A program made the translations under genes and the position numbers. From Raillietiella orientalis (lineage: Eukaryota): a DNA stretch of 64,000 bases. Below the pieces are notes generated by a model. That model ran no database searches and had not been told where the DNA came from. It saw only the letters and a program-made list of their open reading frames with translations. The stretch covers positions 1,984,001-2,048,000 of the forward strand of contig JAYWIR010000017.1 in NCBI GenBank assembly GCA_036172245.1, in the 5' to 3' direction. The number at the start of each line of letters is the position of its first letter. The first letter of the stretch is position 1. Shown one piece after another: positions 7,302-25,553 of this stretch.

Positions 7302-7470
7302 CTAGTGGATTTCCTTTTGGAGTATATGAACAAGATCAGAACGATTCATAGTTTTCAAGGCTTCCATCAACGAGTGTAGAGCGTAGACGGGGCTGGTATA
7401 ACGGCATTCCCAGAAGTTGAGAATTTCTTTGCATGGATTCGGCTTCGTTGCGAAGTAACTGACGGCTTTG
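7302..7470 (-). CDS. unc-5: UNC-5 last coding exon, death domain C-terminal part; stop TAG at 7304-7302
   Basis: Follows a 51-nt intron. Translation SKAVSYFATKPNPCKEILNFWECRYTSPVYALHSLMEALKTMNRSDLVHILQKEIH* (cf. UNC5 YFATK..P...IL..WE). Confidence 0.93.
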
Positions 7471-7521
7471 CTAGGGACAAACAGAAAGACATCTCACCCA
7501 ACATCAATCTGATCAATTCAC

Positions 7522-7694
7522 CTGTCTATGTACAGTGCCTTGGCCAACAGTCTCCACTCGTTTGTCACGGAACTAGGTAGGTCGAGATGCTGGCTTATAA
7601 TGTTCTTTATGAATGAGGGAAGTTTGCTGGGAGACTGCGTCTGGGATTCGGCAGTGTACAGACCGCTGCTCGATGAGGAAGGCCTCTCGATGAC
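7522..7694 (-). CDS. unc-5: UNC-5 death domain, N-terminal exon (phase 0-2, 173 nt)
   Basis: Acceptor ttcttgcttag, donor ag|gtgaat. Translation ...KLPSFIKNIISQHLDLPSSVTNEWRLLAKALYID matches the UNC5 death-domain LD.P....DWRLLA pattern. Confidence 0.92.
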
Positions 7695-7738
7695 CTAAGC
7701 AAGAAGTAGCATGGATTTTCCGCAGGAGAACCACTTGC

Positions 7739-7909
7739 GTTTTTGTTAAAGGTTGACAAGAACACGCTTTTCCCTTCTTTGTCTCGTCCTTTCTGATACA
7801 CCAGCAGGTGAGCTGGTCTTAAGGAACGGGATTCGGAGTCAAAACAGAACGTAAACGTCAATCCTTCCTCCGGGTGCCTTTCCTGCCAAACGTCTTGGAA
7901 CGGCAGCTC
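7739..7909 (-). CDS. unc-5: UNC-5 UPA domain, C-terminal exon (phase 0-0, 171 nt)
   Basis: Removing a 48-nt gtgcgt...ttcaag intron gives CQ|ELPFQDVW (cf. UNC5 QEIPF..IW), then HLLVYQKG. The exon end relies on a GC donor at 7738. Confidence 0.82.
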
Positions 7910-7957
7910 CTTGAAAAAGCTTCCATTTGGGGTCATTACATTTACGAAAATACGCAC

Positions 7958-8490
7958 TTGGCAATTTTGTTGTACACTGCACCCACTGGGGAGATCTTTT
8001 ACGAACATCACTACGTTGAAGCCACTGTCTTCAACCAACAAGGTCTTTGGTGTGTCCACCAAAACATATCCCAGGTGCTCCAGCTTCGATGATGCTTTTC
8101 GAAAAAAGGTGGATCCTTCTTTCATGCAAAACACCCGGACTCTGGAGACGTTTGACCCGTCGGTACTTTGGAAGGCCACGATGGTCATTCTTTTGACAGC
8201 GAACTGATGTGACAAAGACTCCCCCACAAGGCACAGTCCACTGAGTCTGTCGCACATGACGTAAGCAGTCATGTCGTCGACCTCGACAAAGAGGGGGCAG
8301 CCTCTCGGATACTCGTCCACGTACGAGAGGAGTTTCCACTTCGTTCCCGAGGGGTCGCTGTGGTACACGGCGATCTTCCAAGAATTTCGGGACAAGTCAG
8401 CACTGTGCTTAAAGAACAAGATGGCGGACTGATGGAGAATCAGTCCGTGCGGTTCGCACAGGATGACGGGACTGATAATCGTTTGATGAG
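7958..8490 (-). CDS. unc-5: UNC-5 ZU5 C-terminal part and UPA domain (phase 1-0, 533 nt)
   Basis: Follows a 46-nt intron. Translation PHQTIISPVILCEPHGLILHQSAILFFKHSA...W...CLVGES...AVKRMTIVAF...RVRVFC...QQNCQ. Confidence 0.92.
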
Positions 8491-8536
8491 CTGGAACATT
8501 GCGTGTCAGCAGGAGCGGTGAGCGTGGCAGACTTAC

Positions 8537-8761
8537 GATTGATAAACGGGTGCACAGTGTCCTCAGAAAGAAGTGATAAAAACACGTCTTGGGGTTTTTC
8601 GCTTGCTATCGTTCCTTCGGGAATGATCATGGACACGTCACAGTTCGAAGCCTTTACGCATCCTCCTGCATTCGAGATGCTTGCTTTGGACAGGGATAAG
8701 CGCTTCCCAAAGAAGGAATCCGCCGATCTTGAATTTTCCTCAGCAGAAGAGTCACAGAACG
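8537..8761 (-). CDS. unc-5: UNC-5 ZU5 domain, N-terminal part (phase 1-1, 225 nt)
   Basis: Follows a 52-nt GT-AG intron. Translation ...SISNAGGCVKASNCDVSMIIPEGTIASEKPQDVFLSLL (ZU5 GG...VS.IIP.G.I pattern); donor gtaagt. Confidence 0.92.
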
Positions 8762-8813
8762 CTATTGCAGCAAAGATATGAATCAGCCACCTCATGACTC
8801 GTAGGAAACGTAC

Positions 8814-9149
8814 AGCTGAGAAAGGAAGAGCTGGAAGCCGGCGTGGATCTGCACTCATTCGCTTTGCATTGCTTGGCAGGTAAACCGGTGGTCGGAACAA
8901 GCAGAGGGGTCTCGCATGCTTCCATGGAGAAATTGCAAACTGCTGGTAACCGGAGCTGAGGGTCGTCGTACAGATTGTCGCTGTCATGACAACGCGCCGC
9001 GTGCCAGGCATGGCAGTTGAAGAAGGCACTGCTGCTCAGATCCTTTTTTTTCTCTGCATGGGAGATTTTGGAGGTAACATTCTTGGTAATGTCAGGTTGA
9101 ACGTTATAAGAAGGCTTCTCTGGATCATCGCAGACACTCCTTTCGAATC
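8814..9149 (-). CDS. unc-5: UNC-5 juxtamembrane cytoplasmic exon (phase 1-1, 336 nt; possible upstream acceptor with exon from 9248)
   Basis: Acceptor tttgtttcag, donor gtacgt. Open frame GFERSVCDDPEKPSYNVQPDITKNV...DNLYDDPQ...SSSFLS; VQPDIT resembles the UNC5 QPDLT motif. Confidence 0.85.
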
Positions 9150-9248
9150 CTGAAACAAAGACTTGGTAAAGACAGCAACTCGAAGCGCAACTCCAGAAGC
9201 AAGGACGGCTTTCGAAACATCCGTTCTCAAGGATGGAGCTCCACAGAA
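9065..9248 (-). repeat. Inverted-repeat arm A (unc-5 intron end plus exon start); partner at 12599-12791
   Basis: Manual alignment: 184 aligned nt with 10 mismatches, plus 6-nt and 3-nt insertions in the partner. Confidence 0.97.
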
Positions 9249-9290
9249 CTTAGATCGTAAGAATTATATTAGCATTCTGAAGAGTATTAC

Positions 9291-9446
9291 CAGATATTCC
9301 TCTAGCTAGACTGTAACCAGGATTATTTCCATTCTTCTTCTTCAGGAATCTTAAGAAAACAACAAGCATGGATAAAAACAGCAAAATCGCAATTATGAGT
9401 CCACAGTAAAGTGCCACATCGGTGTGCATAGACTTCTGCGTGGTAG
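9291..9446 (-). CDS. unc-5: UNC-5 transmembrane exon (phase 1-1, 156 nt)
   Basis: Acceptor ttctctttcag, donor gtaata. Translation ATTQKSMHTDVALYCGLIIAILLFLSMLVVFLRFLKKKNGNNPGYSLARGIS: DVALY.G motif, hydrophobic helix and basic stop-transfer. Not in the ORF track; translated by hand. Confidence 0.92.
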
Positions 9447-11690
9447 CTGAAAGAGAAACATTTCAGTAACCGATCATTACAAGCATCCCACTTTACAAGA
9501 TCCTAAATATACGCTTTTGTAACAACGCCTAAAAGAAAAACGGTTTGACACTCATGTGATGTGATACAGAAGACGAGATAATCACAGAGTCTGAAAGGTG
9601 CTTTCAGCTATGCTCGTTTAATGTGCAATTCAAGGGAATTTTGTCCTTTGGTTCCCCCCTTCCCCTCCCCCGCTGTAGTAAACAAGAGCGAGCAACTGAT
9701 CTGTGAAGACGATAAAAGCATTCGCCATTTTGTTTCGTACTTTGAGGTCGAAGCGATTTCCCAAAAACCTCTATAATAAAAGAATTCGTATAATTACTTG
9801 GATGGAATGCGAAAATCACTGCACTCAGAGTTATCCAATCATTCTGAACAGAACCATTCAGATAATTGCCAAATAATCTCAAAAAGTTGACAGGAAACAA
9901 AATATCTGCCACATCTGCCTATCTGCAATGCGCCGTAAAGAAAAATGAAATGTAAAGAAGCATCCCACAGAGGTCATCCGAATTTCAGTTAGAAGAGTTC
10001 TGCTCTGGAACGGAACTACATTCGAAGGCATTTTTTTTTTTCCACACATTTCAAAATAATTGAAACCCACTAATTGGTTCACATCACAGCCATTCTGTGA
10101 AATTTCCTAATTTGCTGTTGAGAATTGTTCACAATTTCAAATTTATTTAATGACAAACGCAGATGCCATAGAGAAAGTTTCTAAACACCTGGAACATGAG
10201 TTTTTCAAGAATTCAGGAATCCGTATGTACTAAGCATACCAAAACAACTGGGAAGGTACAAATAAAATTTACGGCAACTTACAGCGTGCGAAACACGTGA
10301 CCGTTGAAGAAAATTTCCCGAGTTTCTAGTGATTTCACAATGCCGTATTTTATTTACTAGCTCATATATAAAAAAAAAAAAACGTATGGAGAAATGATTT
10401 TCCGTACAGTCTGCCACCAAAAGCACAATACAAGTACAGCAAATCTCTGATGGAAACAAATTAAATTGTTCTAGCACTAATTGTGTATTTTCGAATGTGG
10501 GAAACACCAGACCTCCTTTACATACGAGCCACAGAACGATGATGGCGTTAAAAAACCCGAAGTAGAAGATATTGGCATCATCATTACTGTCTTGTAAAAA
10601 TTCTAATCTGACTGCAATCATGTCTTTAGTTTCTGTATTTGCTCTACATAAAATGTGTGCTGCAGTATTAACATCACAAACTGGTTTCAAATGTCTGCAA
10701 ACTTCTGCACACATCAATTTTTGAAACACACTATGCACAGCATCTACGAAAGAGTTAACTGATTTTCAAGAGCGGAAGGTTCAGAATGTAGAGAGTCTCT
10801 TTGAAATAAAGGGTCAAAAATCAAGCAAAGGTACTGCTGGAGAGCTACTTTGTATGCTCGGGTGGTGATGCCGAAAGGATCTTTGACTATTGTGCTTTTA
10901 GGAATTGAAATCCAAGAATCTGCAAACTTTCCTAAGATTCCTGACCAAGTTTTCGCATACTTTGAACAGCTCAAAAAATGACTTTGAGTGAGATAATTAA
11001 AAGCAGAAATAACTGATTCGTAGAATGCAAATTCAAAACAATCACATACGCTGATCACAATCCATCATGCTGTTAACAGACTCAGTCTGCCCAACCACTT
11101 GAAAACCAAATGTTCTGTGGGTTCACATTTTGCAGACATTTTTTCCTGTCAGGAAGCAACAGCAGCAAGTAAGAGCAGGTAACTCCTTTTAATGTTAAAC
11201 AAACATAATGCTAATATTAGAAAGGAAATATATTCATTGATAATATGAATACACAGGTATATAAAATGGATGCATTTGCTCATTCAAAGATATGTGACAC
11301 GAAAACACACATGCTGTGAAGATCCACACACGAAAGTACCATAGCTACTAAAGCAAAGAAGCGTTTCATGCTTTTATGTGTGTACACTTGACAAGCACGT
11401 ACAATCAAAAAGATGAAGTTCGAGCAAAGATGTTTCCTTTCGAGTACAAGAAATCAACTTGATCTACTCTTTCAGATGGACCAAACACCAACTTTTCAAC
11501 GGTTTACAAAAGCAGAAGAGCACGATGCAAAAGAATGCTTAACTTCAATCTACTTTTGTCACATTTACGGAAACAGGCTTACCTTCCAATATAGAAGTTC
11601 CAGATGCATAAATCAACAGAGACTCAAGATCTACAAGGAATGTTTGTTTTTTTTTAAATTTTTTATTTGGAATTAAAAAAATTATCCTAC

Positions 11691-11861
11691 CTTCGCCTTT
11701 TTTACAGAAATCCCCCGTGCAGTTTCGTGTAAGGATATCAGGACCTTGGCACGACATTCCTCCGTTAGCTGGTACTGGATTGCTACAGGAGCGAGTCTGA
11801 CTTTGCCTGCAGTCAGGAGCGCAGGCAGACCAAGATGACCAAGAAGTCCAGCCACCATTCT
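11691..11861 (-). CDS. unc-5: UNC-5 second thrombospondin type-1 repeat exon (phase 1-1; 171 nt, or 174 nt from 11864)
   Basis: Tandem acceptor tttCAGCAG, donor gtagga. Translation NGGWTSWSSWSACAPDCRQSQTRSCSNPVPANGGMSCQGPDILTRNCTGDFCKKGE. Confidence 0.95.
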
Positions 11862-11940
11862 CTGCTGAAAAGCATTTAACGGTGCAACGAAATTGCAAAA
11901 AGTTTCTTCGTTTTCCTATGTAATCTCAAGAGGTACCTAC

Positions 11941-12111
11941 GCGGACAAGGAATCGTGCATTCAGCTTTCTGAGACGCTGGTCCAACACAAGGTTTTCCTC
12001 CACTTGATGGCGAGGGATTTGTGCAAGAACGCGCGCGTCTTCTGAATCCTTTACCACATTTATTGCTACGACATTCTGACCATGTGGACCACGCAGACCA
12101 ACCACCGTTTA
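11941..12111 (-). CDS. unc-5: UNC-5 first thrombospondin type-1 repeat exon (phase 1-1, 171 nt)
   Basis: Acceptor atcctag, donor gtaggt. Translation [57 protein letters not shown]. Confidence 0.96.
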
Positions 12112-12516
12112 CTAGGATTACAAAAAGAGCTTCAGCACAATGGCACATAAATTGCCTTTGTTTAGAACCCCATTCTCTCGCTACTCATCACCATTTTGCT
12201 CTTCACGGAAATTTGACCCCAAATAGGAGAGCACAGAAGGATGATATCCACACATGCTTACACACAGAAATGAACGTGCGTGATTGTCACACACGTTTAT
12301 TTCAAGACAAGGTTAAAGTGAAAGAAGTAATGAAACCACATCTTTGTATACAAAAAATGAATGTACCCGCAGGGCCTTACATACTTATAGAAGAGATTCC
12401 TGCAAATACTTTCGGAGTACGAAAATGTATTTCGGTATGTAAAAACAAACACCTTCAGGATTCTATTGTTTAGGAGATGAAAGATGCTGTAGCAGTTTTT
12501 GTTTAGGTCGCGCGCT

Positions 12517-12970
12517 ATGATCACGGCGACATCCAACGATGCTAACGTAAGTTTTACTATCTGTATTTTTTTTTCACACCACGCTTATTCGAATTAAATT
12601 CTTTGGAGCTGCTTCCTTGAGAACGGATGTTTCGAAATGCGTCCTTGCTTCTGGAGTTGCGCTTCGAGTTGCTGTCTTTATCAAGTCGTATGTTTTGTTC
12701 TAGGATTCGAAAGGAGTGTCTGCGATCATCCAGAGAAGCCGCCTTCTTATAACGTTCAACCTGACATTACCAAGAATGTTACCGCCAAAATATTTCAAGA
12801 TCAATGGCAAAATGTGCGATAAATTGAGTCAAGAATTGCGTTTGAGGTCTTCGGAGCTATTTCTTGTGCAGAAATTAGTGAAAACTTGTTTGACAGCAAC
12901 AGAATTCGAAAAGCAAGAAAGCATGGCGAAAATATGCAGCATTACAAGTCGATTCCGTTCCGTTACATGA
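12517..12970 (+). CDS. Hypothetical nested antisense two-exon ORF (12517-12546 + 12704-12970, 98 aa)
   Basis: Acceptor tttttgtttag (AG 12505-12506), ATG at 12517, donor gtaagt at 12547, acceptor ttttgttctag (AG 12702-12703). The phase-0 join is open to TGA at 12968-12970. No homology or expression evidence. Confidence 0.25.
12599..12791 (+). repeat. Inverted-repeat arm B: inverted duplicate of unc-5 9065-9248 inside the Ig2-TSP1 intron
   Basis: The plus strand encodes RPCFWSCASSCCLYQV...GFERSVCDHPEKPPSYNVQPDITKNVT, nearly identical to the minus-strand unc-5 frame. Confidence 0.97.
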
Positions 12971-15369
12971 TAGATAACAGAACAGCCAAAAAGATTATAG
13001 ATATATAACCAATTCTTCAGCCTAAAAGGAAAAAAAAATTGCCCTCTTCAATGTATTAGAGCTAACTTGACTACATGATCGTCTCAGCCAAGGATTTGGG
13101 ACTTTTATGTCGATGGCTTTACGTAGACCGATGCACAGCACGACTTCAACACTACTGAATGAGAAATAGAAGTTTAACCGATACCACACCTCTAAGTTTT
13201 CCTAAAAAGGGAAGAACGGAGGAAAACGTGGATTTCTTTCCCACTCACTACAGGTATTCGAAGAAAAACTGAAATAGGCGCGAAAGGTCTGGAAATTTTG
13301 AAGTCCAAAACAAGCATCGGGTTCATCTTGTGATTGCAACCTGCTTGATTCACAAAGCACAACGCTTGCAGATCGGAGTTCACAAAAGCTGAGAGCGGCT
13401 CAATGATTCATAAGCAACAATTTTTATTTCCAAATGAAAATACTTTGGGGAAAAGCTTCCTTCCTTGAAAACTCTGCATGCAACAAGCATTTTGACCCGG
13501 ATCTCTCGGGGCGATTATTCTTCTCTCTATTATTGATCTGTTCAATCTAAATGATTAAACAGATCTCAATGCAAGGAACTCTACTATAGGGTGGCAGACC
13601 AAAATGTTTTATTTTATAGATTTTTTTTTTCTTTTACTGGTAACGTCTAATCTGCAATTTGCATTTAAGAGGCTCCAGAAGCTGTGAATGGATGAGCATA
13701 CGCTCACAGAGAAGGAATTGAAAACTCGAATGGTGACCAAGCACGATGCCACGCTTTGTGCACCTATTCTTGGAGCTCATTAATGCTGCATCAATCGTGA
13801 AAACTAGGCAACAGACCTAAAAGATTTGAGAGCATTCAGGAAATGAAATCCATCAAACATTATCAGAAATACCAAGGAAATGCATCTGACAGATGCATCA
13901 GTTTTGCGCAATATCGTATCGATTATCGAGAGCTTCTAACACTATAAGCCCAATGTGTCGCTTACCGGCTCCAAAAATTTCAACAAATCCAGATGTGAGG
14001 CATCAAAAATTTCGAGTATGAAAAAGCGGCAAAAGAATTTTAAAAAAATGTCAGAAGTAAATGTGAATGATAGTAAATGAAAAAATGTAAAAACCCTTGC
14101 ATACCCATGCTAGCAGCATGATACTTAAAGATGCACATGTTAAACATACAGCTCTGTGAAGAAAGAGTTGCTATGTTTCAACTGTCAGCGAGAACCTTCC
14201 TATGGTGAATCTTTGCCCGCGCTCTTGCACTTTAAAAAAAAAAAAAAAAAAAATGCTCAAAAAGAATCGAATCTTTTCGTATTAAAAACGGCAAGGGTTC
14301 GATGATGCCAACGAACCTTTGCCACTTTCCGCTGCTACGCACGTTTCTCTCCCTTGCACGTAATCCCTTCTTCTTCCCTGGTGAAACCGAATGTTTTCAC
14401 GGGAAAAAAAGGCTCAGAGTAGAGCAGTGTCGATATCGGCAACAGAATGCGGCATTATCACTATACGCCCTAGTTGTCTATTTTCCACTTTCAAGACGCA
14501 AGAGTGCATACTCAGCATCCTTGAAATATAGAGTGGAAATCCACGAAAGCAGAAGAGGTGCAAAGCAAGAAGAAAAAATGTCGAATGCTCGACATGCAGG
14601 GAAAGTTTCCCTCTTCTTACTCTACACCTCTTCTGGCTTCGTGGATTTCCACTTTTCCGGCACGTCAAACATTCGACATTTCATGTTGAACTCATGCTCG
14701 TTCTCCCCTCCACCGCAGAACGCAGCTCGAAACGAGAAGATCCGGAAACTTTTTGTCATGGTGGTTTGCGAAGATCTTAAGGGTTACGGAACAATCTCTA
14801 AACAGAACATTCGCGTGGAGTTCTAAATTACGATTTTTGAAGGAAAGAGCTTCAAAGAGCTGGAAAATGCCACCAGAGGATATTCGTGAAGGTATCTATG
14901 CCTCCTCCGATGACGAAAAAATGACATGAAATTACTTTGACCACTTGAAATCGCTGAATGGTTGCGTATTGCCACGCGACGGTTGTGGTCACCCTAACGC
15001 TGCCGAACGCGCTCCTCCGGAAATACCATATTCCTGTCAGGTCACATGAGTCCTTTTAGACATAATTTAAATTAGAAAAGCTTTTCCTCCACAGTGCTTC
15101 TTCTTCAAAGAATCACATTCTTCATAAACCTTTTGCATCATTTCGTCTCGTCTCGTCCTCGCCGGCTGCTCACCACTTTATGTCCCACAGATCGAACGCA
15201 GTGAATGTCATTGCTGCCTCTACACACCCCTTGCTCTTATTTTCGGGTAAATATCACGTTTTCCTAAGGTTGCTAAGTTCTCTCTAAGGTGCTACAGGTG
15301 CGATTTCGTGCTGGACTGCCTAGGCAATGGTTTTACTTCGCCAAAGCAATAATTATGCCTTTTATTCTG

Positions 15370-15620
15370 AAAACTCCTGGCAAACATCCCCAGGATGATA
15401 AAGAGTCAGCTGAAACGGCCTGACTGTAGTGTCGAGCAATAGATAAAAATTTCTGATCAAGGTAGTCCGCTGTTCCTCCTCCTCTATAAAAATTAGTGCT
15501 AGCTGGTATGCATTCGGAAAGATGGTGATTGAATGGGCTTACGAGCGTCGCCCACCGATCAGCAGTCGCGAATCTCTCGAGCTGAAGAGTGTTCAAAGGC
15601 TTATACTTGCTTTCTGTGGA
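15370..15620 (+). mobile_element. Decayed LINE RT C-terminal fragment, antisense in an unc-5 intron
   Basis: Single frame 15405-15608: VS*NGLTVVSSNR*KFLIKVVRCSSSSIKISASWYAFGKMVIEWAYERRPPISSRESLELKSVQR, colinear with LSWN.H.....ANR.L.FL.R...C....K..AY...VRP.LEYA...W.P........LE.VQR. Confidence 0.6.
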
Positions 15621-17299
15621 GGACACTTATGCTTAGTACCTTTCCTCACAAGGCTTCTGTCACGCCGGTATACGATGCCTCTGGGAACATGAGCGCAACT
15701 GATGTTTATCATTTGCCCAACTGGCAGACAAAAAAAAAAAAACCAACGAAAGTTGCTGAATACCATGAGAAGATCTACATGTCTGTAGAGCGGCATAAAT
15801 TGGATACCCTTTTCGCATAATCAGGAGATGATTATTCATGGGAGGTGCGTGAAGGCGCATGGTTTCTCGGTATAAGTTTGACGTATAGAAGGAGGCAAAG
15901 AAGAGTCGTTCCTTTTTTTCTTTCGAGTAGTCATGGATGAGTGATAGATCGATTGAGAACGTTACTGTCAAACAGTGAACGGAACCTTTCTTGATGAGGG
16001 TACGAAGTGCACAAGAAAGCAAACATTCCTACCAGATCAAGCAAGGCACTCGTCGCAGAGGCAGCAAAAAACAACACATCTCTATCGTCCCACTATTGAA
16101 AAGCCCTACTTGTTTGTAACTTGCGTCAAAATAAGTCATAGGTGGACAATATTCGCATAAAACAATTCCATGTGTACGATCTGCAAAAAAACGGGGAAAA
16201 GACCACAAGTTTGCAGTTTGCCTGCACTTGAACATTGGAGAGTTTCATACATGGCACACGATATATAGAAATCGTCAAGAAGAACCAAGATTAGGTCACA
16301 ATTTAGAAGTTTTCCTCAATGTCCAGCTCAATAGAAGCTAATCATCTGAGCTATGCTTTCAAAGACCATCTGCTCCTGATGCACACTGCCTCCCAGCTTC
16401 TCTGCAGCTTCTAAAACCCCCTTGATGGGACATATATAATGCCTTTAAGATAAAACTATGTAAATATGTCCACATCAAACAAATGCCACGTCGTCCTTGC
16501 AGTGGACTGCATGCAGCAGAGGTAGCAACGGAAGCAATTAGAAACAAAAAAGAGAATAGTACTAGAGCGATGTATGAACTTCTGGGGGAAAAAGATAGGG
16601 CGTTTGCAATCAGCCTCACTCAGCCAGAAGAAGGTAGGAAAGGACGGACGGTGCGTAGTCACGGTTCCAAACGAGTGGGCGGACAGGGTGTGCGCCCGGT
16701 GACCACGGCGCAAAAGCGGACTGCAACAGGCAAGGATTTCACCATCTGTCTATTATTTTGGATGAGTCTGCAGTGTGCATCAACTTCCAACTGCAAGCGG
16801 CACGATCACCTCTTCGACACGACCGTTCCGACGACCGTAGCCAACTGATGTACACCCATCTTACGCAACCTCAAGTGGATCTCTGCGCACACTCTCAATG
16901 TGCGCCACGTTTGAAATGGCACTCGAAGTGCGTATGCGCACGTCTTAATTCATTTCCTGTCTAGTTGTAACATTCGCACCGCGCTCATCTCATTTTTTTC
17001 GAAACCATCGTGTGCAACAGAAGTGAAAGTCATGCTGGGATGAAGCAGGCAGGAAAATTACAGAAACATCTTCCTCGACAGCAAACACACGAAGGATCGC
17101 AAGGGATGAAATGGAACAAGAACCACAAAAGCTGCTATTGACTACGAGAACAGATGGGATGCACAGAAGAATGAGTTCAAATTTTGCACCATTCGGCTGG
17201 TGCAAGACCTTCCGAGGAAGGATCGCCGTTCAACAAGAGATGGAAAGCGCTCCCCAGAAGGCAAAGAGAAAAAGTTGCCTCCTCCCTCCCGTTTCTTAC

Positions 17300-17584
17300 C
17301 ATGGACCGTTAAGGTCGCCTGCTCGCTGACTCGACGATGAGCCACGTTCTCCGCAATGCACGTGTAATTCCCGGTTTCGTTTAACCCTGCCTGGACTATG
17401 ATCAAACTTCCCTCGCTGGTGATGAGGTAATTCTTCTCCTCTTTAGGGTTGATAAGCACTCCATTCTTCAGCCACGAAATCTGAGGAGGAGGAAACCCTT
17501 CAGGAGGGAGGCATCTCATCTCGACTTGTGTGTCGACTTCCACGCTCTGAGAATACGGGTGCTCCAGGAACTGTTTTTTGATAT
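17300..17584 (-). CDS. unc-5: UNC-5 Ig2 exon (phase 1-1, 285 nt)
   Basis: Acceptor ttttcccgtag, donor gtaaga. Translation HIKKQFLEHPYSQSVEVDTQVEMRCLPPEGFPPPQISWLKNG...GSLIIVQAGLNETGNYTCIAENVAHRRVSEQATLTVH, in frame with both neighbouring exons. Confidence 0.96.
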
Positions 17585-17805
17585 CTACGGGAAAAAAAAG
17601 TCACCTTGCATATAGATCTAAGGAGCAAGGAGCTCTTTTCAAAGTTGCTCGCTTAAGAAAAAATCGTTTTCTTTTACGAATGCTCGTCAAGTTGAGAGCA
17701 AAACAAGCACAGATTCAGAGAGAGAGAGACTTCCTGAAAAGAAAAAAACTTTCCGTTGTTCTGAGGCGCCAGATAATATCTGGGGCCGTTTCGTTCAGCA
17801 AAGCC

Positions 17806-18322: not shown

Positions 18323-19703
18323 CAAAATACGATCGATACACGAGCATTTTCATCTATAATGGACTCGCTTTTTTCTGGAACCACAAGGTTTTGTGGCTCG
18401 GTGGCTCCGCGTACTGTAAACCCCATACCTGCGCGCTTCTCTTCCCTTCTGTTTGACACCGGCTTCGGAATGGCTTGACCTCAATATTCCAGGCAGGAGA
18501 GTGTGCTAAGCCTGTGCCACTCGGTAGCGTTTTGTTTCCCTAGAACTTGCGCAACTTCCCACACGGAGTGGAAGCCCATTGCATGGCGGCAAATGCTCAA
18601 ACAACATCCACTTTTCCCTTCAGGTGTGATTTCATCTTCATGAAGGTTTCTTCCTCCCTAGCTTCGATGATAATAACTGGTTACGATGCTAGTACGTAAC
18701 AATTTTGCTATTGACTTTTTTCTCCCCTCCGCGAGTGACATTTTTTCCAACAGAAGCGCCTTCCTGTGAACGGAAAAATTTGCTGACCTGCAATCTAACG
18801 AGTCCTCATTTGGTGATTTTCCTTTCTTCACAAGCTCTCTCTCTCTTTTTTTCGAAGACAGCACTTCTACAAACCTAACAACTTTGAGCATCCCATAAAC
18901 GATTGTGCACACCTAGCAGCTTCCTACTCGGTCCACCTTCACGGCGTCCAGAATGCAAAGCTTCTTAAGAACGAGCACAGAAACACGCAAGAATCCGTGT
19001 AGGAATAGGAGACGAAAACGGCACATTTCCCAAGATTCTCCGGGCTTCGGGAAGACAGGTGTGTAAACGGGAAGCAGCAGGAATGGCAAGCCATGCAATG
19101 AACTATTTCCTTCAAGAAGGCAAGCCTCTAGTTCAATAAACAGCCATGGTTTTTTGTGAGCGCATCGAAATCGGACCATACGTAAATCATCCCAGCCGAA
19201 TCAGGTTCCCTAGCAACTCACTCTGCGTATAAGTGAGGTTACACACGATTCACTCCGTGGAAGCAGCAAGTGCTTTCGCAGCAAAAAAAATTCCTTCAAC
19301 ATCCTTGCTGATGCTCTTGAGAAGGACGACAGAGAAAAACGCCTCCGAGAAACTTCTGAAACCTCGCCGAGTTTTCTACGAACAAAACGACGAGCGTGGA
19401 ATGACAAACGACTGTTTGACTTGGGGTCTGCGAACTGCTGTGAGCAGAACAACAAAAAATTATGAAGCCACTGACGATTCGACTTCCTATTGTCAAGTAG
19501 CTGTCCGTGTTTTAATGGAGTCAAAACAAAATACGATACACGAGCATTTTCATCTGCAAAGGACTCTCGCTTTCTTCTGGAACCACAAGGTTTTGTGGCT
19601 CGGTGGTTCCGCATACTGTAAGCCCCGTACCTGCGCGCTTCTCTTCCCTTCTGTTTTGACACCGGCTTCGGGATGACTTAACCTCTTATTCCAGGCAGGA
19701 GAG
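18323..19703. repeat. Direct repeat pair of ~178 bp (18323-18501 and 19527-19703)
   Basis: Both copies read caaaatacgat...acacgagcattttcatct...ttctggaaccacaaggttttgtggctcggtgg...acctgcgcgcttctcttcccttctgttt...gacaccggcttcgg...tattccaggcaggagag, with scattered substitutions and small indels. Confidence 0.95.
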
Positions 19704-20747
19704 AGAAGAATGCGAAAGAAAGACTTCGAGCAAGGGCGGTATAGGCGAGGATGGAAACGAAAGAGAGACTATGCCCAAAGGGTTCCTCCTATTGCACGAT
19801 CACTACTGAAGTTAGCATGAAGGCTGCTCACAACCACAAAGGAGCACACGTGAACTGAGAAAACCATGACACTGAACTGACGATTTCGTTGCTGAACATC
19901 CAAAGAGCAAAGAGGGGAAATTTCGGAATATTCGGGAAGTTTCCACACCCAATTTCGAAGCTGCGGCACCATGCCTGAGAGGCTTTTCAAGAGCTCCTGA
20001 CTGTGCATGCGATCCCACAATGATTTGCTGGCTCCACACTTTCGATTACTCCAAAGTTGGTTGGAACGCTTAAAAATAGACGGAACAGACAATTTGCGAA
20101 TTCCTCAACGGAAAATAACGAAAAATTCCGGAATCCAGAAAAAGAACTCCGCGCCCGCGAACAGTTTTTTTTTTTCCTAAGTAACACCGCGAGTTCAAAA
20201 ATTCCTCAATGAGCTTCCCTGAACACCACGCATTTTAATTAAATAGATGAATTGCGTACGCGAACACTTGTTTCCACCTCAGGATCTCTCCCCAAATGGG
20301 GTCTTTGAAACCTAGGTTATTTTTCATTTCCAGAGCAATGCTTCTTACGTTCACAGTTCACACACTGGGAGGGGGGGGGGAGTGATCGAACGACCGTCTG
20401 CAGAATACGAGCATCTTTTAGGTGGTCGGACACTAAAGATGATGAAAGAGATGGGAAAGACCTTTACTCTTGAGTGTTTACAGTGAGATTAAAAAAACAC
20501 GCCTCTGAGGTTTCCGGTGCCACGGTGCAGCTTTGTAACCATGCTGCAAACTCTTTGTCGATAAAATGTTCCAAATTCTTGTAATCCCCCCCCCCCCCAA
20601 TGTTTTCCTAATTATATACCACCAATTTTGGAACAGTTTTTGGCGTCACACTTGTGTGAAATTCTACGAACGCTCACTTTAAAATCCGAACGAAAGCTGC
20701 GCAAGTAGCGACGGCAGACAACAGAATCCCACAAAAGTTCTACTTAC

Positions 20748-21125
20748 GAGCTACTAAGATCTTGGCTACATCGCTCTTGATCTCTTTTCCGTTTGCCCAT
20801 GCGTAACATTCGCATTCGTAGGTTCCGTCGGAGAGCGCTTCCTCCACCTGCTTGCGAGTCACGCTCACTTGCAGGGAAATCCGACGCACCCCGGTCAGGG
20901 GATCCACGTGGTCGTGTTCGACTTGTTGGCTGTCATGCACCCAGTCCCCGTTGCACTTGATCTGCACTTGCTGAACGCTGATCGCCGTGCACTTCATCGT
21001 GGCCGCCTTGTTTTTGGTCACATAGCCATCCTGCGGTACTTCCACAAACGAGGGGGGGTGCTCCAGAGCTCCGTTGTCCAAAACTACGTTGAGAGTTTCC
21101 GTTCCCAAATCACCTTTTTGCACCT
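20748..21125 (-). CDS. unc-5: UNC-5 netrin receptor, Ig1 exon (phase 1-1, 378 nt)
   Basis: Poly-T tract plus tttag acceptor (21127-21126), donor gtaagt (from 20747). Translation PPSFVEVPQDGYVTKNKAATMKCTAISVQQVQIKCNGDWV...VSVTRKQVEE...YECECYAW is the typical UNC5 Ig1 pattern. Confidence 0.95.
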
Positions 21126-23379
21126 CTAAAAAAAAAAAAAAAAAAAAAAAAAAAGTTAAGTATACGAACATTGCACGGTATGGAGCAATTTCAAACGAAA
21201 CTGCATCTCCGGGGAACGGACCCGGACACTCAAATTTGCTCGTATTTTGAGCGCAGTTGGACTTTCAGTTCGATCCTTTCAATGGGCTCGTTCTGGAGGA
21301 GGACGGATCGTCAAATTCCAGGATCGCGAAGCAACCGAGTTAAGTCTTTGGCTCTCCGTCCTTACTCGTACGACAGACATAGCAACCATTCATGAAATCT
21401 CGAATCTTGAAACTATGTGGTTTGCGAGGACCTCGCGACTTTTAGTTTATTCCCCCCCTCCCTCCCTCCGGGTGCAAATTTGAACTTGAGGCATCAGAGC
21501 ACAGAATGACCCATTCAGTAAAACCGGAGACGTCAGCCAACATCTCAGTTATTCGTCATGGGAATTGATACACAAGTTTTCTGCATCCGGCTGCAGCTGA
21601 TCCTGACCGGTGGCTAGAAAATCCACTGAAGGGCGACCTTGTGCATCCTGATATGAATTCCAGATTCACATTTCCTGAATTCGAGACTTAAAACAAAGCT
21701 CTGTTAAGATGAAGAGATCGAAAGAATCTGGAAAAACGTGACAAAAAGGTTTTTATTTGGCTCTACCTTTCTGAATTTGCTCGACACGGACTCCCCACAA
21801 CAGTGACAGGAAACACAGTGTAGGGAGCATTCTCCGAAAGGTGGAATTCCTTGTCTAGATGGCTTCAAGCTTTCCTCCTCCTCCTCCTTGAAAAACAAAA
21901 CTTGCTGAGTACACAGAACGGAAAACGAGAAAGCATCATCATTTCAGCATTTTCTGCACGCAAACTTTTCGATAGCCTTAGAAAGGTACGGTGCCTTCAC
22001 GCCGCGAGTAAAAAAAAAAAAAAAAAAAAAAAACACCAAATAGGTACCCAAAGTCGGGAACGACATCCACAGTGCTTTGCAGGGATGGGTGGTGCTGTCA
22101 TTGGCACTCTTAAAAGAACACGCACTCGTGCAACGAGGGTGGGTCACGATTCTCGCGCAGAGTGGCGTCCACTTACGCTTAGCCGAGATCTTCCCCCACG
22201 TACGCTTAGAAGTACCGCGGTCACATGACCACAGTTGAGAACCTTCGCTGAGAACATGGGACTGATTCCAGCTCGTGAAAAAGGAAAGAGAGCGCTGAAT
22301 GCTAGCGGAACTTCATGAAGCAATTTTGGTCTCGTGACAGCACACAGTGCGGAAACCCCGGTTACACACGTGGATTTAAATCCGCCAGAGACGAACAGGG
22401 GGAAGATCGCACACTTCCCCACAAGATTCTGCGTACGCTGAATAGGAAAGCAAGCAAACCACTTCAGGGAACCGAAGCTGGTGCTGATGAATCAGGTTGC
22501 AGGTTGATTATCGGAAGGCATCAATCATATCAGAGGTCAAACATAAGCTCATAAGTTCTGAAAACAGAACCTACGGAAAACTTTTGGGATTTGCGGATCT
22601 ATGCAAACTGGTGTGCTTCAAACGGAGCCCCACGCAACGCCTACGAAAACGTAACGCAATTTTCAAATTCCTTGAATAAACAGCCACATGCCAGTCGGTT
22701 TTCGATCTGTGACTTTGTACAGCTACCTTCTCGAGGCAGTCGTTTATCCGAACATCAAAATAGCAGAACACGGATGCATCTTCTCTGCCTGCATGTCAGT
22801 ATATTATCTACGTCCACATCTCACATCAACCCTTTACACGGGTAGCAAGAATCAGAACGAAACATTTCCCACACCACCAAATGCAAGCCAGTGTCCAAAG
22901 GAATTTCGAGACAAAAAAAAAAAAAAAACACTTGTGACTATACACTTTTTTTTGGAGAACGCCATCATGCACTAGACCTGGCTCTGTATTTCAAAATGCT
23001 CTTTTGAATCTCTCCTTCAGTGATACCACTGCTATGATAAAGCTATCATGATTACACCATGACAGTAAAGAAAATACTTCTTATTTAGTTGCTCCTGGTT
23101 GAAGCCAAGCGAAATTGCTTGAAGACAACAGAGGAAAAGATCGTGTTCTCTTTGGACGGGCGATTCTGGTGACGGGTCCACAGGAAATGTCGTTGACTCT
23201 CCTCTACTCGGACCTCCTCCTCATTTGCTGGTTTACGTGCCATACTTTTCGAAGCGAACGGAGATTTCACTTCCTTCGATGGTTCGCGGTTTAATTGACC
23301 CACTTCCTTTCCAGCACCAAGCAATATACTCCACTTCTCTTCATTTCATTTTGCCCAGTTTTATATAATACACGTAACA

Positions 23380-23720: not shown

Positions 23721-25501
23721 CCTCGTAAGTGATCAGGGTCATGGCACGAAGAACAGCACAGCTCTCGGAAAACCTCCTCTGCACCCGGAAAGCGTTCAAC
23801 AACCCAAGTGTCAAAGATCGGAGCACCGAAATTTCGAATACTTAATCAGGGAACCACTTCTTGAAAACGTAAAGCACAGGAAACCCATTTCTTTCCTTCA
23901 GCAATGATGTCACATTAATGTCATCATCCCATGACGGAGAGTGCTCCCGAAAACAAATGCTTGGTGTCGCACCTGTGAAAGGCAAGGGGAATCTCTTCGT
24001 CTTCTTCAAGTTCAGAACAGAGGAAACTGTGATTTTTGAAAAAGGAAGCTCCCACTAAAATAACAGATGACGTCAGGTTGAAAAAGAAGCATTTCTTGCT
24101 GGGAAATTTGGTCGTTTTCCTTACTCCCGGGTCCGTCCGCAATCTAATTAAAGTCCTCCTCGAGCGTGAAACGGAAAAAAAAAAAAAAGTCAGCTAATGG
24201 GGTCGTTCGATGTCCGCATTGGTAATCAAACGTTGCAACACACTCCATTCCCACGCAATCTTCACTCCGAAACGACACGAGCTGATCAATCGTGCGCTTT
24301 CCCCTGCATTGAGGGGGTTTGCTTGTCGAGGCTCATGCACTCATGCAGGGAACAGCTGCAGCTTCGCATCCAGAAGATGGAAAACACTCTGGTGGTGGAA
24401 AAGGAGCGGGGGATTATGATTTTCCGTTAATTTCATTGCACTTCGCAGAAAAGTCCCTGGCGGATGTGGAGGCACTGATCACTGGCAGGCACACACACAC
24501 ACACACACACGCAGGGAACAGGGGAGATGCGAAACCAGCAGGGCACGATCACGGTGCGGAAACAGGAACAAAAAGAAAAAGCACTCGCGAGCGCCGCCTT
24601 CAGAGATCAGACCAGGAGAATCCCATGGAAACGAGTGGGAACCGTCCTCCGATGGAAAAAGCATGGGACTTATCCGACGCGTTCGGGGTCCCTCGCGACG
24701 TGAAAGTTAAGAGGCGAAAATCCACAGCCATCTGGATCCATTAGTCTTGTGGTGGGATCGTCACAAACGCGTTCAAGTCTCCCGGAAAACCACGGCGTGC
24801 CGCCCAGGACGGCACACGTGGAACAAGAGCACGGGAATTTGTCCCTGCCAAAAAGGGCGCCGCACGAAAAGCTCTCTCGCAAGGGAGAAGGGGAGGGGGC
24901 GTTTTGCTGTTCGGCCCGACACGGGACTTCAGAAAGCGCCTGTTCCGAAGTCCGTGATCGTGGACGAGGTCCAAAAGGGAAGCTTGAGGATCCGCGTTGT
25001 CCGCGGCACAATTCTCCTTACTTTGGATATTCAGTCGACTCACCAGCGAAGGACGGAACCCCCACCAAAAGTGCACCGGAGTTCTGCGAGAGTTCCCGGA
25101 CTTCGCGACCCGTGCGGGAACGTCGAGAACACGAGAGCGCCCTTCGTACTCCTGGCGTGGGCTCTCCGCGCCGTCGTTTTTGTAGCCACGCGACGCTCTC
25201 TGACAGACGACGGGAGAGTCCGCCTTGGGACTTCCCTCCTGCTTTGCGGGCAACGCGCCGCCGTCGCAATGCCGGCAGGCCGAACCCCCGGAGGCTCTTC
25301 CCAGAAATGAAAGCGGGGGGCACTTTGGACACATCTGCCATCGCATCCCGCGGGCGGCTCCCGATGTTTGCATGCGCGTGGGAGCCGTGCGAGGCGGACG
25401 GACGGACGGTCGGTCGGTGTGTCGGTGGTGCGACGGGCGGACTCCCAAGAAAAAAGCAAAATTAAAAAAAAGTGCTGGCGCGCGCGCATGCGTGCGCCCA
25501 C

Positions 25502-25553
25502 CAGCTGCGAAAATGAAGACGACGACGACGACGAAGAGCACCCCCGGAGCTCC
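25502..25553 (-). CDS. Candidate unc-5 signal-peptide exon (GAPGVLFVVVVVFIFAA, phase 0-1)
   Basis: Acceptor ccctccag and phase-1 donor g|gtgggc. Splicing to the Ig1 exon gives ...FIFAA|EVQKG, a plausible h-region and cleavage site. It has no ATG, so a further upstream exon is required. The hydrophobic run comes from a (GTC)n repeat and could be coincidental. Confidence 0.4.

What the first reader, a model, noticed from the sequence alone, without database searches (positions are those of the whole stretch)
9065..12791. Intragenic inverted duplication brackets the TSP1-TSP1-TM exons of unc-5: candidate dsRNA splicing / circRNA switch
Seen: 9065-9248 and 12599-12791 are reverse complements (184 aligned nt, 10 mismatches, two indels of 6 and 3 nt). 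The pre-mRNA could form a ~180-bp duplex looping out ~3.35 kb that holds exactly three exons (171+171+156 = 498 nt, all phase 1-1). The duplex would also bury the next 3' splice site (9151-9150) and 85 nt of that exon. Established: flanking intronic inverted repeats promote back-splicing and exon skipping, and long duplexes are ADAR/Dicer substrates. Inference: three outputs are possible - (i) a 498-nt circRNA whose frame has no stop, (ii) an in-frame TM-less UNC-5 acting as a secreted netrin decoy, (iii) A-to-I recoding or endo-siRNA in the juxtamembrane exon. The repeat is built from the gene's own exon rather than from a transposon.
Basis: partly seen in the sequence, partly recalled or inferred. 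Interest (0 to 1): 0.85.

Follow-up and report, generated by a model that had tools for sequence, protein, structure and literature searches.

The report
Exon-derived inverted repeat inside UNC5 gene
A netrin-receptor (UNC5) gene carries, in one of its introns, a backwards copy of about 190 bases of its own intron-exon junction, so its transcript could fold into a long hairpin around three exons, but nothing yet shows that this changes splicing.

Summary
Window 9065-9257 and 12590-12791 are reverse complements: 177 identities in 197 alignment columns, indels of 3 and 6 nt, E 1e-75. They are the only long-range inverted repeat in the 64-kb window.

The gene, on the minus strand, is an intact-looking UNC5-type netrin receptor.
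- The loop contains the TSP1, TSP1 and TM exons, all phase 1.
- Arm A covers 108 of the 141 intron bases before the juxtamembrane exon, plus that exon's first 85 nt.
- Every skipping product is in frame, and the circle has an open frame.
- 182 base pairs are predicted.

The exon half of arm A encodes a juxtamembrane motif (QPDIT) shared by UNC5 proteins across bilaterians. Arm A is therefore the original and arm B the copy. No transposon marks were found.

Function is untested. No genome, reads, relatives or RNA data could be reached. The mismatch pattern shows no selection for pairing.

Best reading: an old, probably neutral micro-duplication that by its geometry should promote some back-splicing or acceptor masking. 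A regulated "switch" is unsupported.

The parts
9065..9257 (-). Arm A (the original). It holds the last 108 nt of the 141-nt intron 9290-9150, including the presumed branch-point region, polypyrimidine tract and acceptor AG at 9151-9150. It also holds the first 85 nt of the juxtamembrane exon, which encode the conserved QPDIT motif.
12590..12791 (-). Arm B (the derived inverted copy). It lies in the 5188-nt intron between the Ig2 exon (donor after 17300) and the first TSP1 exon, and ends about 480 nt upstream of that exon's acceptor. In the transcript it reads antisense to arm A.
11941..12111 (-). First TSP1 exon, 171 nt, phase 1-1 (loop exon 1)
11691..11864 (-). Second TSP1 exon, 174 nt, or 171 nt from 11861 (tandem CAG-CAG acceptor), phase 1-1 (loop exon 2)
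9291..9446 (-). Transmembrane exon, 156 nt, phase 1-1 (loop exon 3). Its donor lies 33 nt from the edge of arm A.
8814..9149 (-). Juxtamembrane exon, 336 nt if the GTACGT donor after 8814 is used, phase 1-1. It is followed by a 52-nt intron (8813-8762), and the ZU5 exon starts at 8761. The 3' boundary is inferred from frame and splice consensus only.
17300..17584 (-). Ig2 exon. The donor after 17300 is verified. The acceptor near 17585 was read by eye from the sequence printed.
20749..21054 (-). Part of the exon encoding the UNC5 N-terminal Ig-like domain (boundaries not determined)
7311..8761 (-). Exons for the ZU5, UPA and death domains (internal boundaries not determined)

Best explanation
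This is a genuine, fairly old, DNA-level inverted micro-duplication inside an UNC5-type netrin-receptor gene. About 190 bp spanning the acceptor of the juxtamembrane exon (arm A) was copied in reverse orientation into the upstream intron (arm B). It is most likely an evolutionary accident that has been tolerated, not a selected device. It nevertheless makes a textbook reverse-complementary match. If both arms coexist on one pre-mRNA they should form a duplex of about 182 bp. That duplex places the donor of the TM exon (33 nt from the duplex) next to the acceptor of the first TSP1 exon (about 480 nt from it), and it hides the branch region, acceptor and first 85 nt of the juxtamembrane exon. 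The expected consequence is a minority of transcripts diverted to a 498/501-nt three-exon circle, or to in-frame skipped forms. Full-length mRNA would be made whenever the upstream intron, which carries arm B, is removed before arm A is transcribed. Shown here: the repeat, its uniqueness in the window, the gene and exon anatomy, the frames, the direction of copying and the predicted duplex. Inferred: that the duplex forms in vivo and every RNA product.
For: The repeat is real and unique in the window. It has 13 mismatches and two indels over about 193 nt, so it is not a fresh event or a typical assembly palindrome. The exon half of arm A encodes a motif QPDIT. A QP[DE][LIVA][TSMG] motif occurs in 27 of 57 UNC5 homologues of 600 aa or more. 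Carriers include horseshoe crab, octopus, mussel, whelk, firefly, brine shrimp, starfish, sea urchin, acorn worm, amphioxus and a caecilian (names). tblastn places the motif at the corresponding position of the Tachypleus protein, in a weak alignment (E 0.64). Arm A is therefore ancestral coding sequence and arm B the copy. Divergence is 2 of 85 in the exon-derived part and 11 of 108 in the intron-derived part (Fisher p 0.04). Only 2 of 13 mismatches are G-U compatible. That is the pattern expected if only arm A's coding half is constrained and arm B drifts. Predicted pairing is 182 intermolecular pairs at -314.4 kcal/mol, against -94.1 +/- 3.9 for 30 shuffles. All 182 pairs are kept in the global minimum-energy fold of the 3951-nt pre-mRNA segment. 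No competing complement of 40 nt or more lies in the flanking introns. Published work shows that inverted repeats of about 30-40 nt next to splice sites are sufficient for circularisation (PMC4201285, abstract and passages). It also shows that deleting reverse-complementary matches in C. elegans lowers both the circle and the skipped transcript (PMC8330042, abstract and section 8).
Against: There is no RNA evidence of any kind, and no back-splice, skipping, editing or small-RNA data could be obtained. The same paper that establishes sufficiency also reports that strengthening the hairpin can inhibit circularisation and that thermodynamics alone does not predict it (PMC4201285). A 182-bp duplex is far stronger than the tested repeats. 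Co-transcriptional removal of the upstream intron could eliminate arm B before arm A exists. Neutrality rests on 13 mismatches and two sequences, which cannot exclude selection. Copy number in the rest of the genome is unknown.
Confidence: 0.55

Rival explanations
1. The repeat is inert. The duplication is real, but the duplex essentially never forms on pre-mRNA. Either the 5.2-kb upstream intron carrying arm B is spliced out co-transcriptionally before arm A (3.3-3.7 kb further on) is made, or helicases and binding proteins prevent pairing. The repeat has no RNA-level consequence.
For: The gene looks intact, with all domain exons open, and arm A hides 108 of 141 intron bases plus the acceptor. 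Efficient duplex formation would therefore block production of the normal receptor, yet the repeat has persisted long enough to collect 13 mismatches and 2 indels. Very stable hairpins can inhibit rather than promote circularisation (PMC4201285).
Against: The arms are the only strong complement in the region and dominate the predicted fold. Much shorter matches (7 and 13 nt in zip-2) measurably act in vivo (PMC8330042 section 8).
Confidence: 0.2
2. This is the first reader's reading: a selected, regulated splicing or circRNA switch. The duplex is maintained by selection to divert UNC5 pre-mRNA into a translatable circle, a TM-less secreted form or a juxtamembrane-less receptor in particular cells.
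For: All alternative products are in frame and the circle has a stop-free frame. The duplex sits close to the relevant splice sites. The exon-derived half of the repeat is better preserved (2 of 85 vs 11 of 108, p 0.04). Splicing in the region around the membrane span is functionally important in a vertebrate UNC5 (UNC5B exon-8 skipping by NOVA2; PMC8358048, search listing and start of abstract only).
Against: Phase 1-1 exons are a property of the domain exons themselves and need no special explanation. Better preservation of the exon half is expected from coding constraint on arm A alone. Only 2 of 13 mismatches keep pairing through G-U. A TM-less product would carry the cytoplasmic ZU5, UPA and death domains into the secretory pathway, which is an odd decoy. 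No conservation or expression data exist.
Confidence: 0.12
3. The repeat is a double-stranded RNA substrate. Arm B serves as an editing-site complementary sequence for A-to-I recoding of the juxtamembrane exon, or the hairpin is diced into endogenous small RNAs that dampen the gene's own mRNA.
For: It has the geometry of an exon paired with an intronic complement. 85 exon bases, including the conserved QPDIT codons, lie in an almost perfect duplex, with helix runs of up to 43 bp.
Against: Whether this organism has ADAR or a suitable Dicer pathway could not be tested. The duplex is long and nearly perfect, which favours promiscuous rather than site-selective editing. No RNA data are available.
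Confidence: 0.06
4. The repeat belongs to a mobile element. The two arms are copies of a short interspersed or miniature element, one of them exonised, or arm B sits in an element that captured a gene fragment.
For: The unit length (193-202 nt) is in the size range I recall for such elements. Genome-wide copy number is unknown.
Against: The window holds only two copies. No target-site duplication or terminal inverted repeat exceeds chance: flank matches are 5 nt in both arms, with 65% (arm B) and 60% (arm A) of 200 shuffles doing as well. There is no tRNA or Rfam match. None of 17 intronic ORFs has a Pfam domain. The exon half encodes a motif shared by UNC5 proteins across phyla, so it was not brought in by an element.
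Confidence: 0.04
5. The repeat is an assembly artefact. Arm B was created by a chimeric read or a mis-join and does not exist in the organism.
For: Reads could not be inspected.
Against: The copies differ by 13 substitutions and two indels, and are separated by 3.3 kb of unique sequence with correctly ordered exons. From general knowledge, artefactual fold-backs are expected to be near-identical and adjacent.
Confidence: 0.03

Closest known systems
Reverse-complementary matches (inverted repeats) in introns flanking circularised exons, e.g. Alu pairs at human ZKSCAN1/HIPK3 and the short matches at C. elegans zip-2
   Same: Two complementary segments bracket a set of exons with canonical splice sites and lie close to the back-splice donor and acceptor. 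The length (about 190 nt) far exceeds the reported sufficient 30-40 nt (PMC4201285). Such matches promote both circles and skipping of the same exons (PMC8330042).
   Different: The downstream arm is not purely intronic. It covers most of a 141-nt intron, the next acceptor and 85 nt of the next exon, so it should also block the competing linear splice. The repeat comes from the gene's own coding sequence, not from a transposon. No circle has been observed here.
Mouse Sry circular transcript flanked by long inverted duplications (recalled; mentioned as the model locus in PMC4201285)
   Same: A non-transposon inverted duplication of local genomic sequence brackets the circularised exon.
   Different: As I recall, the Sry arms are many kilobases long and flank a single-exon gene. 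Here the arms are about 190 nt, lie inside one gene, and one arm is part exon.
Editing-site complementary sequences of ADAR targets (recalled general knowledge)
   Same: An intronic segment is complementary to a coding exon of the same pre-mRNA.
   Different: As I recall, known examples are usually short, imperfect and conserved, and lie near the edited exon. This one is long, nearly perfect, 3.3 kb away and of unknown conservation. No editing is shown.
Origin of hairpin RNA and MIRNA genes by inverted duplication of target-gene sequence (plants; 10.1101/682591, search listing only)
   Same: An inverted duplicate of a gene's own sequence creates a fold-back able to give small RNAs against that gene.
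   Different: That model concerns separate loci in plants. Here both arms sit within the target gene's own pre-mRNA in an animal.
UNC5 family netrin receptors
   Same: It has the full domain set: N-terminal UNC5 Ig-like domain, Ig, two TSP1 repeats, a hydrophobic span, ZU5, UPA and death domain. Exons are collinear with homologues, and the juxtamembrane QPD motif is shared.
   Different: The cytoplasmic half is only 23-33% identical over most hits, 33% for the best, to anything among 1.84 billion representatives. The lineage is therefore poorly sampled.

Membership tests
UNC5 netrin receptor gene | Domain order Ig-like (UNC5 N-terminal), Ig, TSP1, TSP1, transmembrane span, ZU5, UPA, death domain | tested here: met
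   Pfam hits were Unc5_NetrinR_N 2.9e-31, I-set/Ig_3 about 1e-13, TSP_1 1.1e-8 and 6.6e-3, ZU5 2.3e-5 and 3.9e-8, UPA 1.4e-8, Death 4.1e-7. The second TSP_1 hit scores 17.1 bits, below Pfam's 21.6-bit cut-off, but is supported by 56-59% tblastn identity to homologues. The transmembrane span is read from the hydrophobic stretch in the translation.
UNC5 netrin receptor gene | Significant similarity to named UNC5 proteins | tested here: met
   111 representatives had E<=1e-3; the best was 3.5e-23 at 33% identity. The named ones among the 14 looked up are netrin receptor UNC5 proteins of arthropods, molluscs, echinoderms, a hemichordate, amphioxus and a vertebrate. 2 of the 14 carry no name.
circRNA-flanking reverse-complementary match pair | Two reverse-complementary segments of at least about 30 nt able to pair | tested here: met
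   177 of 197 columns are identical. 182 predicted pairs at -314 kcal/mol, against -94 for shuffles, are retained in the global fold.
circRNA-flanking reverse-complementary match pair | Arms lie in the introns on either side of exons with usable splice sites | tested here: met
   Arm B lies in the upstream intron, about 480 nt from the acceptor at 12112. Arm A starts 33 nt after the donor at 9290 but extends across the next acceptor into the next exon. This departs from the usual purely intronic arrangement.
circRNA-flanking reverse-complementary match pair | A back-spliced (circular) RNA joining 9291 to 12111 exists | not testable with these tools
   No sequencing run was listed and no genome is held.
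circRNA-flanking reverse-complementary match pair | Removing an arm lowers the circle or the skipped transcript | not testable with these tools
   This needs an experiment.
ADAR editing-site complementary sequence | Intronic complement pairing with a coding exon | tested here: met
   85 exon bases are paired with arm B.
ADAR editing-site complementary sequence | A-to-G differences between RNA and DNA at the paired exon, and conservation of the complement | not testable with these tools
   No RNA reads and no related loci were available.
Transposon-derived inverted repeat pair (SINE or MITE) | Many dispersed copies | tested here: inconclusive
   The 64-kb window holds only two copies. The genome is not available.
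Transposon-derived inverted repeat pair (SINE or MITE) | Target-site duplications, terminal inverted repeats, tRNA-like head or transposase nearby | tested here: not met
   Flank matches are no better than shuffles. No tRNA or Rfam family was found, and 0 of 17 intronic ORFs has a Pfam domain. The exon half encodes a conserved host motif.

The most novel reading that the evidence does not exclude
The gene may have built a kinetic splicing governor out of its own coding sequence. An antisense copy of the juxtamembrane exon's acceptor, parked in the upstream intron, would sequester the branch region, acceptor and the codons of the conserved QPDIT motif whenever upstream-intron removal is slow. 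The rate of transcription or splicing would then decide between three outcomes: the full-length receptor, a stop-free 498/501-nt circle encoding TSP1-TSP1-TM, and in-frame receptor forms lacking the TM or juxtamembrane region. The same duplex would expose the conserved motif to recoding by editing.
Probability: 0.1. Interest if true: 0.7.

Novelty: new member of a known kind. Interest (0 to 1): 0.35.

Why it matters
If the duplex acts, this would be a clean natural case of two things. First, a flanking complementary pair that arose from the host gene's own exon rather than from a transposon. Second, one arm that simultaneously promotes back-splicing and blocks the competing linear acceptor. 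That makes it a useful natural minigene for the competition between linear and circular splicing, in a gene whose dosage and isoforms matter for axon guidance. If it does not act, it shows that a 180-bp intragenic hairpin involving coding sequence can be tolerated for a long time. Either way the present evidence is structural only.

Tried and rejected
- **Whole genome:** none is held for this window, so genome-wide copy number, ADAR or Dicer genes and paralogues could not be examined.
- **Sequencing runs:** none was listed for window 8400-13000, and no RNA holder was listed.
- **Earlier findings of the scan:** nothing was found by place, by sequence or by words.
- **Word-index protein search:** a search with the ZU5-UPA exon for longer proteins scored nothing. 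The exhaustive search found only distant relatives, at most 33% identity for the best hit. No close species is available for a conservation test.
- **Metagenome contigs:** a protein-guided scan gave 89 pattern matches, none confirmed. An exact 31-nt arm pattern gave 0 matches.
- **Rfam and tRNA scans of the window:** 0 matches each.
- **Pfam on the arm-B plus-strand ORF and on 17 intronic ORFs:** no family. There is no sign that arm B is an exon of an antisense gene or part of a coding transposon.
- **Literature:** 427 papers hold both 'unc-5' and 'circRNA', since the first term also matches words such as UNC-51. None of the 10 listed titles concerns a circle from an UNC5 gene, so this search cannot show absence from print. 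A search for 'editing complementary sequence' with 'inverted duplication' and 'exon' listed no paper holding the first term among its 10 rows.
- **Rejected idea, inversion by-product:** I considered that the repeat marks a past inversion of the enclosed segment. The three enclosed exons are in the gene's order and orientation.
- **Not pursued, pol III boxes:** by eye, arm A has weak resemblances to pol III box motifs recalled from memory. I gave this no weight, because ARAGORN and Rfam found nothing and the segment is conserved coding sequence.


Full report
**Observation.** The two segments are reverse complements as claimed. The repeat finder on 8000-14000 returned three collinear inverted blocks:
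- 9160-9257 / 12590-12687 (98 nt, 91%)
- 9108-9159 / 12694-12745 (52 nt, 90%)
- 9065-9115 / 12741-12791 (51 nt, 98%)

Gapped blastn joins them into one alignment of 197 columns. It has 177 identities, 11 mismatches and gaps of 3 and 6 nt, with E 1e-75. A global alignment over 9065-9257 gives 13 mismatches.

The pair is unique in the window:
- Neither arm has another hit beyond 13-23-nt matches with E 0.013-0.52.
- A search of 9450-17140 against all 64 kb found only this pair.
- Of the 5 inverted pairs of 40 nt or more in the whole window, 3 are pieces of it. The other two are a local hairpin and an A/T run.

**The gene.** On the minus strand lies an UNC5-type netrin receptor. Pfam finds the following:

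| Region | Pfam family |
|---|---|
| 20743-21126 | UNC5 N-terminal domain |
| 17145-17600 | Ig |
| 11879-12184 | TSP1 |
| 11548-11925 | TSP1 (17.1 bits, below the 21.6-bit cut-off) |
| 8412-9035 and 7610-8605 | ZU5 |
| 7610-8605 | UPA |
| 7305-7493 | Death domain |

tblastn supports the weak second TSP1 hit at 56-59% identity. tblastn with three homologues lays these exons out in the expected order.

The exhaustive protein search found 111 relatives, with the best at only 33% identity. I looked up 14 of them. Twelve carry names, and these are UNC5 proteins of chelicerates, insects, a crustacean, molluscs, echinoderms, a hemichordate, amphioxus and a vertebrate. The organism is therefore a bilaterian whose close relatives are absent from the collections. 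I could not name it.

**Exon anatomy.**

| Feature | Coordinates | Length |
|---|---|---|
| Ig2 exon donor | after 17300 | – |
| First TSP1 exon | 12111-11941 | 171 nt |
| Second TSP1 exon | 11864-11691, or from 11861 at a tandem CAG-CAG acceptor | 174 or 171 nt |
| TM exon | 9446-9291 | 156 nt |
| Intron | 9290-9150 | 141 nt |
| Juxtamembrane exon | 9149 to probably 8814 (GTACGT donor) | 336 nt |
| Intron | 8813-8762 | 52 nt |
| ZU5 exon | starts at 8761 | – |

All these exons are phase 1-1. The junctions Ig2->TSP1, Ig2->juxtamembrane, Ig2->8761 and TM->8761 all read in frame. The 498- or 501-nt circle has one frame with no stop over three turns.

Arm A covers 108 of the 141 intron bases. That includes any branch point, the pyrimidine tract and the AG at 9151-9150. 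It also covers the first 85 exon bases. Only 33 nt remain free next to the TM donor. Arm B lies in the 5188-nt upstream intron and ends about 480 nt before the first TSP1 acceptor.

**Which arm is the original.** The exon half of arm A encodes a short motif, QPDIT followed by K. In the homologues returned, a QP[DE][LIVA][TSMG] motif occurs in 27 of 57 proteins of 600 aa or more. In full-length proteins of 900-1070 aa it lies at residues 369-455, after the TSP1 repeats. Carriers include horseshoe crab, octopus, mussel, whelk, firefly, brine shrimp, starfish, sea urchin, acorn worm, amphioxus and caecilian proteins (names). tblastn aligns the Tachypleus motif to the window's at the right place, though the local alignment is weak (E 0.64).

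Arm A is therefore ancestral UNC5 coding sequence with its own intron, and arm B is the derived inverted copy. Because the copy includes intron sequence, it was made at the DNA level or from unspliced RNA.

No mobile-element marks were found:
- Flank matches are no better than shuffles, and there are no terminal inverted repeats.
- There is no tRNA or Rfam match.
- None of 17 ORFs in the surrounding introns has a Pfam domain.

Copy number in the rest of the genome remains unknown.

**Age and selection.** The arms differ at 2 of 85 exon-derived positions and 11 of 108 intron-derived positions (Fisher p 0.04). They also carry one 3-nt and one 6-nt indel. This level of divergence, with 3.3 kb of unique and correctly ordered sequence between the arms, argues against an assembly fold-back. 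It points to a duplication that is not recent.

The lower divergence of the exon half is what one expects if only arm A's coding part is constrained while arm B and the intron part drift. By my own Poisson estimate from the counts, the observed 2 changes do not differ significantly from the roughly 4 expected from arm B's drift alone. Only 2 of the 13 mismatches are G-U compatible in the transcript, and 5 are transitions. There is no bias towards keeping the helix. With two sequences and no outgroup this is weak evidence, but it gives no support for selection on pairing.

**Capacity to pair.** Co-folding the two arms in transcript sense gives 182 intermolecular pairs and -314.4 kcal/mol. The arms alone fold at -40.5 and -42.5 kcal/mol, and 30 shuffles of one arm give -94.1 +/- 3.9 kcal/mol. 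Uninterrupted helices reach 43 and 41 bp. The minimum-energy fold of the whole 3951-nt pre-mRNA segment 12900-8950 keeps all 182 pairs. No competing complement of 40 nt or more lies within either flanking intron.

**Mechanism.** Published work supports the general principle.
- Inverted repeats of about 30-40 nt next to the splice sites are sufficient for circularisation in cells. The same study stresses that thermodynamics does not predict efficiency and that stronger hairpins can inhibit (PMC4201285, abstract and passages).
- In C. elegans, deleting reverse-complementary matches reduced both the circle and the transcript that skips the same exons (PMC8330042, abstract and section 8).

By geometry this repeat should do the same, with one addition. 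Because arm A hides the next acceptor, the competing linear splice of the TM exon is blocked while the duplex stands.

The gene presumably makes a normal receptor. Most transcripts must therefore escape the duplex, most simply by removing the upstream intron, and arm B with it, before arm A is transcribed. That is inference.

I commit to this reading at 0.55: a tolerated accidental micro-duplication that diverts a minority of transcripts to a three-exon circle or to skipped forms. A fully inert repeat (0.2) and a selected switch (0.12) are the main rivals. The editing or small-RNA substrate, mobile-element and artefact readings share the rest.

**What could not be done.**
- No genome is held.
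- No sequencing run was listed.
- Two metagenome scans found nothing.
- The scan's own notes are empty for this genome.

As a result, raw-read support, genome-wide copy number, conservation in relatives and every RNA-level prediction remain open.

**Comparison and novelty.** The feature works like the known flanking complementary sequences of circular-RNA loci. It meets their structural criteria, but the defining product is unobserved.

It differs in two ways:
- It is derived from the gene's own exon-intron junction.
- It overlaps the next acceptor and the coding sequence of a conserved motif.

Non-transposon inverted duplications that flank circularised exons are known in principle. Sry is the recalled example and is mentioned as the model locus in PMC4201285. 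I therefore file this as a new member of a known kind. Interest is moderate (0.35), because it is structurally neat and directly testable but has no functional evidence so far.

Noticed in passing
window 14520-14665 (arms 14532-14573 / 14612-14653): A strong local hairpin lies in the same upstream intron. It has 42-nt arms at 88% complementarity with a 38-nt loop. The RNA fold is -81.1 kcal/mol, z -11.6, with 0 of 200 shuffles as stable. It could be a miniature inverted-repeat element or a small-RNA precursor. There is no Rfam match.
   Followed up: partly
window 18364-18454 and 19566-19656: A 91-nt direct repeat at 95% identity, 1202 nt apart, lies in the intron between the two Ig exons. Its nature is unknown.
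   Followed up: no
window 24001-30000: A GC-rich block (58-66% GC in 2-kb windows, against 32-50% for its neighbours) with CpG observed/expected of 1.0-1.16 lies upstream of the first Ig exon on the gene's strand. It may hold the promoter and the signal-peptide exon, which I did not locate. Long ORFs in all frames there look like a by-product of composition.
   Followed up: no
window 11861-11866: The second TSP1 exon has a tandem CAG-CAG acceptor, giving a 174- or 171-nt exon. Both are in frame.
   Followed up: partly
window 8762-8813: A predicted 52-nt mini-intron (GTACGT...AG) lies between the juxtamembrane exon and the ZU5 exon. It is inferred from frame and consensus only.
   Followed up: partly
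window 9086-9100 (minus strand codons): A juxtamembrane QPD-[LIV]-T motif is shared by UNC5 proteins from arthropods to vertebrates: 27 of 57 homologues of 600 aa or more. I know of no assigned function for it. It sits inside the predicted duplex.
   Followed up: partly
window 30000-64000: ORFs of 110 aa or more were only read by eye, with no family search. Nothing in the list looked like a gene to me. No RNA family or tRNA was found in the window.
   Followed up: no
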